DNA of 64,000 nt from the NCBI GenBank assembly GCA_035221665.1, contig CM069153.1, positions 30,070,001 to 30,134,000 of the forward strand, given 5' to 3'. The stretch is from Okamejei kenojei. Taxonomy: Eukaryota. Made by a program: the position numbers. Of the stretch, positions 18,001 to 60,000 are shown in pieces (position 1 is the stretch's first letter; each line of letters begins with the position of its first letter).

Positions 18001-21000
18001 TCAGGCAAAGGCTGAGGAAAGAAATGTAGCAATTTCTTTATCAGTTCAATTTTAGAAGTTTTAACTGTTTTTTGTGTAAACGCCTAACTTATCCAAATAA
18101 AACTAACTGATCTTCATCACAGGCATTCAAGTGAATGAACTATAGTCTCTGATTCAATGCCCTCAGAAATAATTATAGTAAAAGTTTAATCTGCTATCAT
18201 CCTTCACCATCATTTTCCCACCATAATAAAAATAATCTGCTATAAATTTCTGCAATAAAGATCAAAAATTGAGTAAATTTAAAGGCATAAAATGTACATT
18301 ATCACATTAGATTAATTGTCGCTGAGAGTGATTATTTCCAGCTAATTATACTTGGTTTTGTACCCATTCCCATTCAGATAATAGACGGGAGAATCTTCGC
18401 TGGGTGTACACCAGCTAATCATGTTGATTAAATTAATGTTCTGTGGAATGCTATAATCTTCCTGCCGGCTTACAAATACAGGGATCAGAAAATTAACTTT
18501 GCAGGGAAGCCTCAAAATTGAAGATTTTAAACCTTCCTGACCAATGGTGATTGGAAGATTCATTAATTCACAAGAAAGTGACTGTTACCCTGGTGAAGAC
18601 ACATGACAGGTGATTTGGCCACAGTTACTTTACTGATGCTCCGATGATAGTTTGCGTTTTGAGTGGTGAAACCATTCTGTGGCATACACAGTGACATTAA
18701 CATACACCGTGAGGAGTAGCGGCCCCAGCACCGACCCCTGCGGAACACCGCTGGTCACTGGCAGCCAACCAAAAAAGCTCCATTTATTGCCACTCTTTGC
18801 CTTCTGCCATTCAGCCAACCGGCTATCCACGCTAATATCTTCCCAATGATACCATGGGCTCTCATCTTCTTTAGCAGTCTCACCTTATCGAAGGCTTTCT
18901 GAAAATCCAAGTAAACAACATCCACTGACTCTCCTTTGCCTATCCTGCTATTTACTTCCTCAACGAATGCCAACAGGTTCGTCAGACAAGATTTCCTTTT
19001 TATAAAACCATGTTGAACCTCGGCCTATTTCATCATGTACTTAGAAACCTCATCCCTTATAATGGACTTTAAAATCTTACAACCACTGAAGTCAGCGCAC
19101 CGGCCTATAGTTTCCACTCTTCTGCTCCCTTCTTGAACAGTGGAGTAAGATTTGCACTTTTCCAATTGTCTGGAACCACTCCTGACTCTAGTGATTCTTG
19201 AAGGATCAACACTAATGCCTCCACAATCTCTAAGGCCCTGGGGTGCAATCCAGCTGATAAGGTGACTTATCCACCTTCAGACCTTTCAGCTTCCCAAGCA
19301 TCTTCTCCTTTGAAATAGCCAATCCACTGACTTCCATCCATTGAATCTCTTGAATTTCAGGCATGTTGTTGGTGTCTTCCACTATCCACTGTGAAGACTG
19401 ATGCAAAAAACGTATTCAGTCCATCAGCCATTTCTTTATTTCCTACTATTACATCTCCAGCATCATTTTCCAGTGGTCCAATGTCCACTCTGGCCTCTTC
19501 CTTACTCTTTATATATCTGAAGAAACTTTTGCTCTCCTCTTGTATATTATGGCCTTACTTACTTTCATATTTCATAGTATATATCTGATCTGATTGGTGA
19601 GAATGCAAAGCACATGGTACATGTGACACTAATAAAACTAAACTTAAAAATGAAGCTCTCAATGACCACCAAGCGGGGCACCAGTAGAAAGCCCAGTGGA
19701 AGGTTCTCCGACTCAGTTTGGATGGAGAAGGGAGGGAGAGGTAGTGGGTGGGGCAAGGAGCTGCACTCGGAGACAAAGGTTTCATGTCATACTGCAATAC
19801 AAGTGTTTCAGAAGCACTTAAACAAGCTAGAAAACAAGTGATATTGGTTACTCCTGAGACGAGAGCCCTGGTCTGTTACATACCACCCAACGGAGCCAGA
19901 GACTTGTCTCACTTGCAGTGCGCAGGGTCACATTGGCAGGAGCCATGTCAGGCGGGGCCTGCAACGTTTGAATTTTGCGTGATAGCTGGCTCGGCAAGCT
20001 CGTCCCCACGATGTTGACCTGGCGCATGCGGAACCTGCAGAGACACAGAGCGGGCACTGCGATACAAGACAATCCACAATCCCCGAGTGGGCACTGAGCT
20101 ACTGGACATTCCATGCCACCCTCACGGGCACTGAATGACAGGACATTCCACATGTGAATGGTACCTGTAATGTGTGAGTGATACCCGTAATGAGGAGTGG
20201 TACCTGTAATGTGTGAGTGACACCTGTAATGGGCGAATAATATCTGTAATGGGTGAATGGTACCTGTATTGGGCGAATGGTACCTGTAATGCGTAAATGA
20301 TTGTAATGGGTGAACCGTACCTGTAATGGGTGAACCGTACCTGTAATGGGTGAATGGTACCTGTAATGGATGAATGGTACGTAATGAGTGAATGGTATCT
20401 GTAATGGGTGAAGTCCCTGTTAAGAGTGAACTGTACCTGTAATGAGTGAAATGTACAGTGGCTTGCAAAAGTATTCATACCCCTTGAACTTTTCCACGTT
20501 TTGTCGCGTTAAAACCACAAACGTAAATGTATTTTATTGGGATTTTATGTGATAGACCAACACAAAGTGGCGCATAATTGTGAAGTGGAAGGAAAATGAT
20601 ACATTGTTTTCAAATTTTTTTACAAATAAAAAACTGAAAAGTGTGGCGTGCTAAAGTATTCAGCCCGCTTTACTCTGATACCGCTAACTAAAATCCAGTG
20701 CAACCAATTGCCTTCAGAAGTCACCTAATTAGTAAATAGAGTCAACTTGTGTGTAATCTAATCTCAGTATAAATACAGCTGTTCTGTGAAGGCCTCAGAG
20801 GTTTGTTAGAGAACATTAGTGAACAAACAATGTTCCTTGGGCATCATGAAGCCCAAGGAACACACCAGACAGGTCAGGGATAAAGTTGTGGAGAAGTTTA
20901 AAGCAGGGATAGGTTATAAAAAAATATCCCAAGCTTTGAACATCTCACGGAGCACTGTTCAATCCATCATCCGAAAATGGAAAGAGTATGGCACAACTGC

Positions 21001-57000: not shown

Positions 57001-60000
57001 CCTTCTGGTTTTGGATCTGCATCTTATTTTTGGCCAAAAGCCGACCGGTTTTGTTCCTCTACAGGTATAATGTCTTTCAAAGTCATTTCCTGGCCTGAGA
57101 GACGCCAGGTTATTCAATAACACTGTATGCCAAACTGCAGGCTTTAAGCTAAACGTTGGCACTGCCGTGCAGCTGAATCTGTTTAGCAATGACAAGAAGC
57201 CAAGTGGAAAAAGTTCAATTAAAAATGCTAAGTGAAACCCACAATGAATTAAAGGCCCCCAGAGTTCATTATTAGCATGAATATTTATTGTTTAGATAGG
57301 CTCGCAAGGCAATGCTAACTACATCTACTTTGCATACACAGAATAGACTGCCTATAAAACAGACTATCCTTGCTCGAGTCCCGTTGGTGGTCTCGACGGT
57401 AAAGCAACACGAGATTGCTTTGTTGAAAATAATCTCTTCTCAGTCTCCATAGTGTTCAGTTCACAGCTGCTACTCTGGTACTAATGGACGAGAAATGGTG
57501 AGAGAAGAGCCTGATGTTTGGAGATGGGTTCAACAGTTACTTTGATCTGGTTTTGAGCTTCCTTTAGTTTCGACTGTAATGTGGAGCATTGTGGATTCAG
57601 ACCCGCAGGCAGAGACTTCACTTACCCCACACCATGTGACCTTGCCCCGCACACTGGGACCTTACCCCACACATGTCCTTACCCCACACGTTACCTTAAC
57701 CCCGCACACTGGGACATTACCCCACACACTGGGACCTTACCCCACACGATGAGATCTCCGGACGCCTCGTCCACTCCGCGGGAATTGGTGGCCAGGCAGA
57801 TGTAGCTGCCGGCATCGGAGATGTGGGATGGGCTGATGAGGAGGCTGCCGGACTCCAGCAGGGTGAAGCGGGGGAACTGGACGGAACCGCTCGCCAGCAC
57901 TTTCTCTCCTGTGTGCAAAAGGGAACACATGTCGCTCATGATATTTATCAGTGACGTTTCACTTTAGAACAGTCCAGCACAGGAATGGCCCCTTCGGCCC
58001 ACAATGTTTGTGCCAAACATGATGCCTGGTTAAACTGATCTCATCTGACTGTATGTGATCTATAGCCCTCCATTCCCTGCACTTCCAGGAGCTCATCCAA
58101 AAATCTCTTAAATGCCACTATCATATCTGCCTCCACCATCACCACAGGCAATGCATTCCACACCCCCACTAATCTCTGTGGAATAAATCTTGCCCTGCAC
58201 CTGGTGCTTCACACATGCACCACAGAAAACTTACTGTTTCTGTTCCATACATCACAGCTTGGTTTGGGAACAGCTCTGCCCAAGACAGTAAGAAGTTGAG
58301 GATGTAGCCCAATTCATCATACAGACCAAACTCCTCACCACTGACTCTACTTACACTTCACACTACCTCGGGAAAGCAGCCAACATAATCAAAGTCATGT
58401 CCCACCCCGGTCATTCCACCTTCTCCCTGCTCCCGTCAGTAAAAGCGACAGAAGCTTGAAAGAATGCACCATAGACGCAGGGACAGTTTCTTCCCCTCTG
58501 TTATCGGGCTTCTGAATGGTCTTACCATAAGCTTGGGTACTGTCTGATTCACTTCTACCCAATTGAGGACATTGGATATAGACACAAAAAGCTGGAGTAA
58601 CTCAGCGGGTCAGACAGCATATCTAGAGAAAAGGAATAGGTGATGTTTTGGGTCAAGACCCTTCTTCAGACAGGGAGTCAGGGGATGTTGGACTTTGCCC
58701 ATGGAACTGGTGCACTATAATGCTGAGAACTATATTCTGTGCTCTCTATCTTTCCCTTTGCTCTACTTATTGCACCTGAATTTGACTTGATTGTGATTAT
58801 ATGTTGTATTATCTCATCTGTTTCTGTTGCATGTAAAACAAAGCTTTACACTGTATCTCAGCGTATGTGACAATCATAACGCTAACCCAGAATAAAAACA
58901 AACCAGTTATTTTAGCCCAGTGCTTTCACCACAGATCTAGTCAGAACCATGTCATTATTACTGGCACTGTTTGTTGGACAGGGCAACAGACGTAGAAATA
59001 AAAAACTAATCTTCTAGTTTATACCTGAAACAAAGTGCTGGAGTAACCCAGTGGGTCAGGCAGCAACTCTGGAGAAAAAGGATGGGTGACGTTACGGGTC
59101 GGGACCCTTCTTCAGACTCATGTCTTCAGTGGATGAGTGGACATATGTCCTTCTTGTGCCACTCGCTTCACTTGACAGGGTCAGACCCAACTAGTCAGCC
59201 TGCTAGTGATTGAAGCTGGAGCTGGCCACAGCGCATCACTTGAAGAGCTTCTGATTTTGTCACTTCTGTAGAATCTCCCTCAGACCAAAAATGTCACCAT
59301 CTTTTAAAGAGAGATTAAGAGCTTGGGGCTGTTGGAACCGGCCCATGGGAGACCCTCTCTGAGAGAGGGCTTCTGGCTGCTTTTGACTTCAGGTGTTACT
59401 GTCCTTGTGCTTGGAAAAGGCCACACACAGAGGACGCTTAGCAACAGTGGGCATGCCTGTTCCAAACAAGTCAGACCCTCCTAAACTGAATTCATCATCC
59501 GTCACTATGAGGTCAATGATCAGTGAATACAGACAGTAGACGTCGGCAGCCTGGTAAAGTTTGTAAAGGAAAGGCAGGGTGATGGGAGATGTGGGAGTAG
59601 GTGTAGATACTTGCCCCTCTGCCAGGTGATGGCGGGTCGTGGAGCCCCCGACGTTTCACACGAGAGGATGACTGAGAGCCCGTCTATCACCGTGCTGTCG
59701 GTTGGCCCCTTGGTGATATTGGGAGGAATACCTGCAACAACCAAAAACAACCATTTCTCTCACATTACTTCAGATATCACTGAGTAATTTACGTCATGAG
59801 AGCACTAATTTTAATCATGGCACGTTTATCAAGTGCATTCTATATGATAACTAAAGGAACAATAAAATTGGAGATATTAGATCTTTTCACAAGACAGTGG
59901 ATCGGATTTCTATAAACATACTACTGTTTTAATGTGAAGATCAATAAACTGCAGATGCTGAAAATCAGAAAGATCACCTTTGTTTCTCTTGCCGTTTACT

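What the first reader, a model, noticed from the sequence alone, without database searches (positions are those of the whole stretch)
20153..57749. Recurrent splice-donor-seeded minisatellites: three unrelated arrays each built from an SDK2 exon end plus its 5' splice site
Seen: at three donors (22454, 27389, 57740) the first repeat unit is the exon's last bases plus GT.., and the array runs only into the intron. The units (20, about 32, about 20 bp) are unrelated, so these are independent events. I saw no such array at any acceptor. Inference: something acting at exon-donor junctions (co-transcriptional R-loops, RNA-templated repair, exon-edge chromatin) seeds tandem duplication. Alternatively, duplications that include the donor survive because the first donor still splices them out. 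Either way the gene carries arrays of decoy donors.
Basis: partly seen in the sequence, partly recalled or inferred. Interest (0 to 1): 0.75.

Follow-up and report, generated by a model that had tools for sequence, protein, structure and literature searches.

The report
Splice-donor minisatellites in a sidekick-2 gene
Three unrelated short tandem-repeat arrays in one sidekick-2 gene each start with the last bases of an exon plus its splice donor and run into the intron, a layout already known from single human genes such as F7 and ABCA7 but here present three times in 35 kb.

Summary
SDK2 lies on the minus strand, with 21 exons in the window. At donors 22454, 27389 and 57740 a tandem array starts 14, 5 and 8 nt inside the exon and runs only into the intron. 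The units (20, 33, 20 nt) are unrelated.

The exon ends are conserved coding sequence, so the exon is the source. The 20154-20450 array is the far half of the 22454 array. A 1627-bp Tc1-type transposon with a TA target duplication split it.

The junction 20-mer recurs downstream at 3 of 21 donors and 0 of 20 acceptors. Strongly tandem flanks occur at 6 of 21 donors and 1 of 20 acceptors, against 0.3% of interior windows.

The kind is known. Minisatellites whose first monomer spans an exon-intron boundary are described for human F7, IFI6, CBS, LMNB2, PDGF and ABCA7, and in F7 the most upstream donor is used (PMC1557585, PMC5954066).

The reason for the clustering stays open.

The parts
22455..22564 (-). 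SDK2 exon E17 (110 nt, fibronectin-III region). It ends ...NPFTHYR and its last 14 nt, TTCACCCATTACAG, are the seed of array 1.
   Evidence: tblastn with crocodile SDK2 residues 851-889. Boundaries.
22083..22468 (-). Array 1, proximal half. It has 19 units of about 20 nt, each ...CATTACAG|GTAC.., starting with the exon tail plus the authentic donor (G at 22454). Four-unit higher-order period of 79 nt.
   Evidence: TRF 22082-22468, score 587. Unit listing: 18 of 19 units start GT and 1 starts GC.
20456..22082 (+). Decayed Tc1/Sleeping-Beauty-type DNA transposon of 1627 bp. It is inserted at the TA of a GTAC inside an array unit, with a TA target duplication at 22083-22084 and 20454-20455.
   Evidence: Inverted terminal arms of 223 nt, 94% complementary. 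Frame-broken ORFs hit HTH_Tnp_Tc3_2 at 1e-19, HTH_SB at 3.5e-18 and DDE_3 at 1.1e-9. Junctions.
20154..20455 (-). Array 1, distal half. It has 15 more-diverged units of the same 20-nt family.
   Evidence: TRF 20154-20450, period 20, 15.2 copies, 78% matches. Units.
20042..20153 (-). Degenerate 37-nt x3 tandem repeat that fills the rest of intron 17 and ends 7 nt before the E18 acceptor. It does not contain the acceptor junction.
   Evidence: 65% self-identity at offset 37, against 16-35% at neighbouring offsets; 0 of 2000 shuffles reach it. TRF missed it.
19884..20034 (-). SDK2 exon E18.
   Evidence: tblastn with crocodile residues 889-938, 88% identity.
27390..27511 (-). SDK2 exon E16, ending ...SRWLVEAQ.
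   Evidence: tblastn with crocodile residues 808-852, 89% identity. Weak Pfam fn3 match, E=0.0066, below the curated cut-off.
27300..27394 (-). Array 2. It has three 33-nt units beginning at the E16 donor (G at 27389): GTAGAGTAAACACACATACACTTACACGCTTGG and two variants.
   Evidence: TRF period 33, 2.9 copies, 79% matches, score 127. Listing. Junction 20-mer recurs at 15/20.
57741..57908 (-). SDK2 exon E5 (second half of an Ig domain), ending ...SGDLIVW.
   Evidence: tblastn with catshark (88% identity) and crocodile (77%). Pfam I-set E=1.7e-5.
57621..57748 (-). Array 3. It has about 6.6 units of 17-20 nt (GTAAGGTCCCAGTGTGTGGG) beginning with the last 7-8 nt of E5 plus its donor (G at 57740).
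   Evidence: TRF period 20, 6.6 copies, score 133; period 55 gives score 169. Listing. Junction 20-mer recurs at 17/20.
43731..43788 (-). 30-nt x1.9 repeat starting 23 nt after the E9 donor. It is not derived from the junction.
   Evidence: TRF 96% matches, score 109..
39777..39847 (-). 34-nt x2.1 repeat starting 43 nt after the E12 donor. It is not derived from the junction.
   Evidence: TRF score 114..
33114..33162 (-). (TGAA)12 microsatellite starting 37 nt after the E13 donor.
   Evidence: TRF period 4, 12.2 copies..
49146..49157 (-). Single copy of the 12-mer CCAGTGTGTGGG at +10..+21 of intron 7. Its register relative to the donor is within 1 nt of that in the array 3 unit (+9..+20).
   Evidence: It is the only exact match in the window outside array 3. 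It is the longest shared word among 210 pairs of intron starts; the next best is 8 nt.

Best explanation
These are three independent junction-spanning intronic minisatellites of the kind described for human F7 intron 7.

Origin. In each case a short segment straddling the exon-intron junction was duplicated in tandem. The segments run from exon -14, -5/-7 or -7/-8 to intron +6, +26 or +13. The copies were then multiplied by unequal exchange or slippage.

Why they run one way. The exon cannot change, so growth shows only on the intron side, and every unit carries a copy of the donor.

Why they are harmless. The spliceosome takes the most upstream donor, so all later copies leave with the intron.

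Why they cluster. I read the clustering next to donors as the outcome of a filter plus long persistence, not of a donor-specific mutagenic process:
- The first ~50 nt of each intron is the only transposon-poor, old part of these introns.
- Deletions that would clear an array there would hit the exon or the donor.
- The acceptor side tolerates less change because branch point, pyrimidine tract and AG must keep their spacing.

Shown: anatomy, independence, polarity (exon to array), age relative to a transposon, and decoy quality. Inferred: the duplication mechanism, harmlessness through first-donor choice, and the cause of the clustering.
For: -
- The exon ends are conserved in catshark and crocodile: DLIVW|A, VEAQ|V and NPF/YTH/YY-R/S|FRMRQ. 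The exon piece is therefore ancestral, and the first donor gives the conserved protein.
- The units are unrelated.
- A higher-order 79-nt period (88% matches) and a 72-nt period (93%) sit in the proximal half of array 1, against 78% in the distal half. This shows continued unequal exchange.
- A Tc1-type transposon with a TA duplication inside one unit shows that the array is natural and older than that insertion.
- In array 1 the decoy GT is kept in 28 of 33 decoy units. Its conservation (0.91) is close to the mean of the 20 per-position values listed, about 0.87 by my addition. Decoys are therefore neither protected nor purged, as expected if they are harmless.
- Without the transposon, intron 17 is 791 nt. 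About 670 nt of that is array 1, and the last 119 nt is another repeat.
- Dispersed repeats cover 4-8% of the first 50 nt of introns but 22-24% at 50-100 nt.
- Precedent for first-donor choice and for the layout: PMC1557585 (abstract, introduction and discussion read) and PMC5954066 (passages read).
Against: - Tolerance alone predicts the same array density at donors as in the intron interior. Yet 6 of 21 donor flanks are strongly tandem against 0.3% of 5000 interior windows. The persistence argument is untested.
- The transposon-poor zone is as wide on the acceptor side, but only 1 of 20 acceptor flanks is tandem.
- The decoys are as consensus-like as the weak authentic donors of E16 and E17 (6 of 9, no +5 G). 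Their silence is assumed from work on a human gene in mammalian cells, not shown here.
- In ABCA7 one repeat unit is sometimes retained in transcripts (PMC5954066), so such arrays need not be fully harmless.
- No RNA data, no second genome and no population data could be consulted.
Confidence: 0.55

Rival explanations
1. A mutational hot spot at exon-donor junctions seeds tandem duplications there more often than elsewhere. Possible causes are polymerase pausing, R-loops, exon-edge chromatin or replication-transcription conflict.
For: - Three of 11 arrays abut a donor where 0.09 are expected (P about 1e-4).
- Six of 11 arrays lie within 50 nt of a donor (binomial P=6.7e-8; 0 of 200,000 simulations reach it).
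- Six of 21 donor flanks are strongly tandem against 0.3% of interior windows.
- Three independent unit families.
Against: - The arrays share no composition: sense-strand GC skew is -0.46, -0.44, -0.19 and +0.54.
- No unusual RNA structure.
- Three of the six near-donor arrays do not include the junction.
- Donor versus acceptor is weak: Fisher one-sided P is 0.125 for junction reiteration and 0.012 for arrays within 50 nt.
- Heritable events need germline activity, and SDK2 is known as a neuronal adhesion gene (general knowledge, not tested here).
- This is one window, picked because it looked odd.
Confidence: 0.15
2. The arrays are kept by selection. Clusters of U1-binding sites or donor-proximal enhancer motifs would help define these exons or protect long introns from premature cleavage.
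For: - Decoys keep donor-like 9-mers.
- The CATTACAG|GTA core is the best-conserved part of the array 1 unit.
- The 12-mer of the array 3 unit recurs once, within 1 nt of the same register after the E7 donor. That would fit a functional donor-proximal motif.
- The E16 and E17 donors are weak, with no +4 A and no +5 G.
Against: - GT is no better conserved than the unit average, 0.91 against about 0.87 (per-position values; the mean is my addition).
- The three units share no motif beyond GTA.
- The near-donor repeats at E9 and E13 hold no sense-strand donor.
- There is no relation to intron length: the longest intron, 14.4 kb after E19, has no array.
- The known human examples are length-polymorphic and in one case harmful (PMC1557585, PMC5954066).
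Confidence: 0.12
3. The clustering is coincidence plus ascertainment. Each array is an ordinary minisatellite, and this window was flagged because three happened to fall at donors.
For: - The window was selected by eye from an unknown number of windows.
- The most conservative test gives only P=0.0025.
- The thresholds for 'array' were chosen after seeing the data.
Against: - Overlap with the exon in register (14, 7-8 and 5 nt) is itself improbable.
- The wider test gives P=6.7e-8.
- 6 of 21 flanks against 0.3% is hard to recover even from tens of thousands of windows.
Confidence: 0.13
4. The arrays are assembly artefacts, that is mis-joined or over-expanded repeats.
For: None from the sequence. 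Repeats are generally error-prone in assemblies.
Against: - The units carry many ordered variants and a higher-order period.
- A transposon with intact 223-nt inverted ends and a TA duplication sits inside one unit.
- There is no N in the window.
- The exon-array joins keep the conserved reading frame.
Confidence: 0.03

Closest known systems
Human F7 intron 7 minisatellite (37-bp VNTR; PMC1557585)
   Same: The first monomer spans the exon-intron boundary (last 4 bp of exon 7 plus 33 bp of intron). The authentic donor is followed by identical pseudo-sites, and the array lies wholly on the intron side.
   Different: - F7 has one array per gene and 5-9 copies, and it is shown to be length-polymorphic and to use only the first donor.
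- Here there are three arrays in one gene with up to 34 units and 5-14 exon bases included. Usage and polymorphism are unknown.
Human ABCA7 intron 18 25-bp VNTR (PMC5954066)
   Same: The array starts with the GT of the exon 18 donor, and each unit begins with a donor dinucleotide.
   Different: In ABCA7 the array has 12 to about 427 units. Retention of one unit and skipping of exon 19 were measured, and the array is linked to disease. No transcript data exist here.
Human IFI6 (6-16) intron 2, CBS intron 13, LMNB2 and PDGF intron 4 minisatellites (as listed in the introduction of PMC1557585)
   Same: These are minisatellites whose first monomer spans an exon-intron boundary, so that the donor is reiterated in the intron.
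   Different: In IFI6 and CBS two pseudo-sites are used besides the authentic donor. The primary papers were not read, so details rest on the one introduction.
Intron change by tandem duplication of a segment containing AG|GT (PMC2891723; search listing and start of abstract only)
   Same: A tandem duplication across a splice-site-like sequence yields extra splice sites without harming the message.
   Different: That model explains new intron positions. Here the intron positions are old and conserved, and only the intron content grew.

Membership tests
Junction-spanning intronic minisatellite (F7 type) | Tandem array of a 10-100-bp unit, three or more copies | tested here: met
   Array 1 has 34 units of 20 nt. 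Array 2 has 2.9 units of 33 nt. Array 3 has 6.6 units of about 20 nt.
Junction-spanning intronic minisatellite (F7 type) | First monomer contains the last exon bases plus the donor GT | tested here: met
   - 14 of 14 exon bases match for array 1.
- 7-8 exon bases match for array 3.
- 5 of 7 match for array 2, the weakest case.
- The junction 20-mer recurs at 17, 17 and 15 of 20.
Junction-spanning intronic minisatellite (F7 type) | The authentic donor is followed by pseudo-donors of like sequence | tested here: met
   Sites with at least 5 of 9 matches to CAG|GTAAGT, authentic site left out: 19 in array 1a, 10 in 1b, 1 in array 2 and 9 in array 3. The authentic sites score 6 of 9.
Junction-spanning intronic minisatellite (F7 type) | Only (or mainly) the most upstream donor is used | not testable with these tools
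   No transcript data were available. Indirectly, only the first site reproduces the junction seen in catshark and crocodile proteins.
Junction-spanning intronic minisatellite (F7 type) | Copy number varies between individuals (VNTR) | not testable with these tools
   Only one sequence was available. The higher-order periods show past unequal exchange only.
Tc1/mariner DNA transposon (the insert in array 1) | Terminal inverted repeats, TA target duplication and a DDE transposase with paired-like HTH | tested here: met
   - 223-nt arms, 94% complementary.
- TA on both sides.
- HTH_Tnp_Tc3_2, HTH_SB and DDE_3.
- The ORF is broken into pieces.
Sidekick-2 (SDK2) gene | Exon-by-exon similarity and order matching named SDK2 proteins | tested here: met
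   - One exon gives 144 hits, and the named ones are nearly all sidekick-2. The best is a catshark protein at 91%.
- 21 collinear tblastn segments with crocodile, turtle and catshark proteins.

The most novel reading that the evidence does not exclude
In this lineage the exon-donor junction and the first few dozen bases of introns are genuine birthplaces, or protected refuges, of minisatellites across the genome. Decoy-donor arrays would then be a regular feature of gene structure rather than rare curiosities, and donor choice would rely routinely on 5'-to-3' scanning.
Probability: 0.2. Interest if true: 0.7.

Novelty: new member of a known kind. Interest (0 to 1): 0.42.

Why it matters
Each array is a natural experiment in donor choice. 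Up to 29 donor-like sites (at least 5 of 9 consensus matches) follow an equally weak authentic site, yet the conserved protein needs the first one. Three such arrays in one gene, plus three more repeats within 50 nt of other donors, suggest that the start of an intron may be a preferred place for tandem repeats to arise or persist. Eight literature searches found single-gene cases but no genome-wide test of that idea. If it holds generally, it bears on how introns grow, on cryptic-splice risk, and on annotation, because gene predictors can pick a wrong copy of the donor.

Tried and rejected
- **R-loop or G-rich non-template strand.** Rejected as a common cause, because the sense-strand skew differs in sign between arrays (for array 3).
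- **RNA structure hiding the decoys.** No signal: z = -1.88, +1.81 and -1.27.
- **Repeat-to-exon polarity (exon grown into an array).** Rejected, because the exon ends are conserved in catshark and crocodile.
- **Units belonging to one dispersed family.** Rejected. The units are unrelated. Self-BLAST shows array 1 matching only its own other half, and an exact 12-mer search finds the array 3 core only once elsewhere, at the start of intron 7.
- **Other donors or acceptors hiding a reiterated junction.** None found: 18 of 21 donors and 20 of 20 acceptors are at background.
- **Protein search with exon 17 read through the array (160 aa).** The aim was to find the same array, or transcripts using decoys, in other data. 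175 candidates shared words with the query and none scored E<=0.001. Only proteins of 88-280 residues were searched.
- **Selection on the decoy GT.** No excess conservation.
- **Literature.** Eight searches found the single-gene human cases but no genome-wide donor-versus-acceptor test. PMC4039745 and PMC10078293 were read in passages and did not bear on the question.
- **Not possible here.** RNA-seq junction counts and long-read checks were also out of reach.
- **Joined spliced model.** The exons were not joined into a spliced model, and no search was made with one.

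
Full report
**The gene and its exons**

A single exon translation (60781-61011, minus strand) finds 144 proteins. The named ones are almost all sidekick-2, and the best is a catshark protein at 91% identity. Local tblastn of three named proteins (crocodile P0057, box turtle P0040, catshark P0001) against the window gives 21 collinear exon segments on the minus strand. I fixed 21 donors and 20 acceptors from those segments and the flanking GT/AG.

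Two donors are GC (E4 at 59614, E20 at 3274). The species is not known. I met no contig that I took for human.

**The observation**

| Exon | Donor (G of GT) | Array | Period and copies | Overlap with exon |
|---|---|---|---|---|
| E17 | 22454 | 22082-22468 | 20 nt, 19.9 copies | last 14 nt identical to the unit tail |
| E16 | 27389 | 27300-27394 | 33 nt, 2.9 copies | 5 of the last 7 nt match |
| E5 | 57740 | 57621-57748 | 20 nt, 6.6 copies | last 7-8 nt match |

- At E17 the exon ends TTCACCCATTACAG. This is identical to the last 14 nt of the consensus unit GTACCATTCACCCATTACAG, and the units follow head to tail.
- At E16 three 33-nt units start at the donor.
- At E5 about 6.6 units of 17-20 nt start at the donor.
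- The three units share nothing beyond GTA.

A direct test took each junction 20-mer and sought its best match in the next 300 nt of intron. E5, E16 and E17 reach 17, 15 and 17 of 20, with null fractions of 0.004, 0.013 and 0.004. The other 18 donors and all 20 acceptors are at background.

**Polarity**

The exon ends are conserved coding sequence. E5 ends DLIVW and continues ARTRIT in catshark and crocodile. E16 ends VEAQ|V. E17 ends with the fibronectin-III LNPxTxY motif followed by [10 protein letters not shown]. The exon piece is therefore ancestral and the repeats were copied from it, not the reverse. Only the first donor reproduces the conserved junction.

**Array 1 is one old array cut by a transposon**

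The array at 20154-20450 has the same unit as the E17 array. Between the two halves lies a 1627-bp element (20456-22082).
- It has 223-nt inverted ends that are 94% complementary.
- It has a TA on each side, inside the GTAC of a unit.
- It has broken ORFs that match HTH_Tnp_Tc3_2, HTH_SB and DDE_3.

It is therefore a decayed Tc1-type transposon. Before the insertion the array had 34 units, 19 proximal and 15 distal.

The proximal half shows 79-nt and 72-nt higher-order periods at 88% and 93% matches, while the distal half shows 78%. Unequal exchange therefore went on. Without the transposon, intron 17 is 791 nt. About 670 nt of that is array 1, and the last 119 nt is a degenerate 37-nt x3 repeat that ends 7 nt before the acceptor. 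These features argue against an assembly artefact.

**Decoy donors**

By matches to CAG|GTAAGT, the 21 authentic donors average 6.33 of 9, and E5, E16 and E17 each score 6. The repeated copies score 5-7. In array 1, 29 of 34 units start GT and one starts GC. The GT is conserved at 0.91, close to the mean of the 20 per-position values (about 0.87 by my addition). I see no sign that decoys are protected or purged.

**Clustering**

- Of 11 arrays (TRF score >=65, period >=4, array 1 counted once), 3 abut a donor where 0.09 are expected (simulation P=1.05e-4).
- Six of the 11 lie within 50 nt of a donor where 0.26 are expected (0 of 200,000 simulations; binomial P=6.7e-8). None lies within 50 nt of an acceptor. 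The thresholds were set after seeing the data.
- A threshold-free scan of 120-nt flanks finds strong tandem self-identity (>=0.51) at 6 of 21 donors (E5, E9, E12, E13, E16, E17) and 1 of 20 acceptors (E18). Among 5000 interior windows the fraction is 0.3%.
- The repeats near E9, E12 and E13 do not include the junction.
- The donor-acceptor contrast is modest. Fisher one-sided P is 0.125 for junction reiteration and 0.012 for arrays within 50 nt.
- Dispersed repeats cover at least 29% of the window. They come to within 50-100 nt of exons on both sides, covering 22-24% there and 4-8% in the first 50 nt.

**Causes tested**

The sense-strand GC skew of the arrays is -0.46, -0.44, -0.19 and +0.54, so there is no shared R-loop-prone composition. 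RNA folding is unremarkable. A protein search with exon 17 read through the array found nothing, although only proteins of 88-280 residues were searched.

**What is known**

The introduction of PMC1557585 (read) states that several human genes hold minisatellites whose first monomer spans an exon-intron boundary. It names F7 intron 7 (last 4 bp of exon 7 plus 33 bp of intron), IFI6, CBS, LMNB2 and PDGF. Its abstract and discussion report that in F7 only the most upstream of the identical donors is used, by a 5'-to-3' scanning process. PMC5954066 (passages) describes a 25-bp VNTR in ABCA7 intron 18 that begins with the donor GT, with occasional retention of one unit.

The layout is therefore a known kind. 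What is unusual here is three independent cases within 35 kb of one gene, together with the wider crowding of repeats just after donors. Eight searches found no genome-wide test of such crowding. Supplements were closed.

**Verdict**

- The 20154 array is half of array 1.
- Array 2 is small and its exon overlap is weak.
- A degenerate repeat abuts one acceptor.

Why the arrays crowd at donors remains open, and one window cannot settle it.

Noticed in passing
window 49146-49157 (intron 7, +10..+21) and 57721-57732 (array 3): The starts of introns 5 and 7 share the exact 12-mer CCAGTGTGTGGG, offset by 1 nt relative to the donor (+9 versus +10). It is the only exact copy outside array 3. It is also the longest shared word among 210 pairs of intron starts, where the next best is 8 nt. 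It could be a donor-proximal splicing motif or a short sequence exchange between the two introns.
   Followed up: partly
window 20042-20153: The last 119 nt of intron 17 hold a degenerate 37-nt x3 tandem repeat ending 7 nt before the E18 acceptor. Apart from the transposon, the whole intron therefore consists of tandem repeats.
   Followed up: yes
window 20456-22082: Decayed Tc1/Sleeping-Beauty-type transposon with long (223 nt) inverted ends that carry internal repeats of the terminal motif. It is inserted in a minisatellite unit at TA.
   Followed up: yes
window 59614 (E4 donor) and 3274 (E20 donor): Two of the 21 introns appear to have GC rather than GT donors (GGG|GCAAGT and AAG|GCAAGC). 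This was inferred from reading-frame continuity with orthologues and not confirmed by transcripts.
   Followed up: partly
window 53786-55977 (+ strand, intron 5): Long open frames of a retroelement. The first (388 aa) matches reverse transcriptase RVT_1 at 1.1e-11. The second (262 aa) has no Pfam match.
   Followed up: partly
window-wide, e.g. 22749-22954, 24448-24626, 50649-50836, 52441-52717: A short dispersed element is present in about 30 or more copies in both orientations. It shares a core of the type ...GCTGGAGTAACTCAGCGGGTCAGGCAGCATCT... and is probably a SINE-like repeat. At least 29% of the window has a dispersed copy elsewhere in the window.
   Followed up: no
window 15-49, 14618-14648, 33922-33944, 62172-62186: Long poly-G tracts of 15-35 nt on the + strand, so poly-C on the gene strand. 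The first lies 15 nt from the window edge.
   Followed up: no
window 21986-22738 (minus strand): The reading frame of exon 17 stays open through the whole proximal array, giving a 250-aa stop-free stretch. The 20-nt consensus unit has no stop in any frame. A gene predictor could wrongly extend the exon here.
   Followed up: partly
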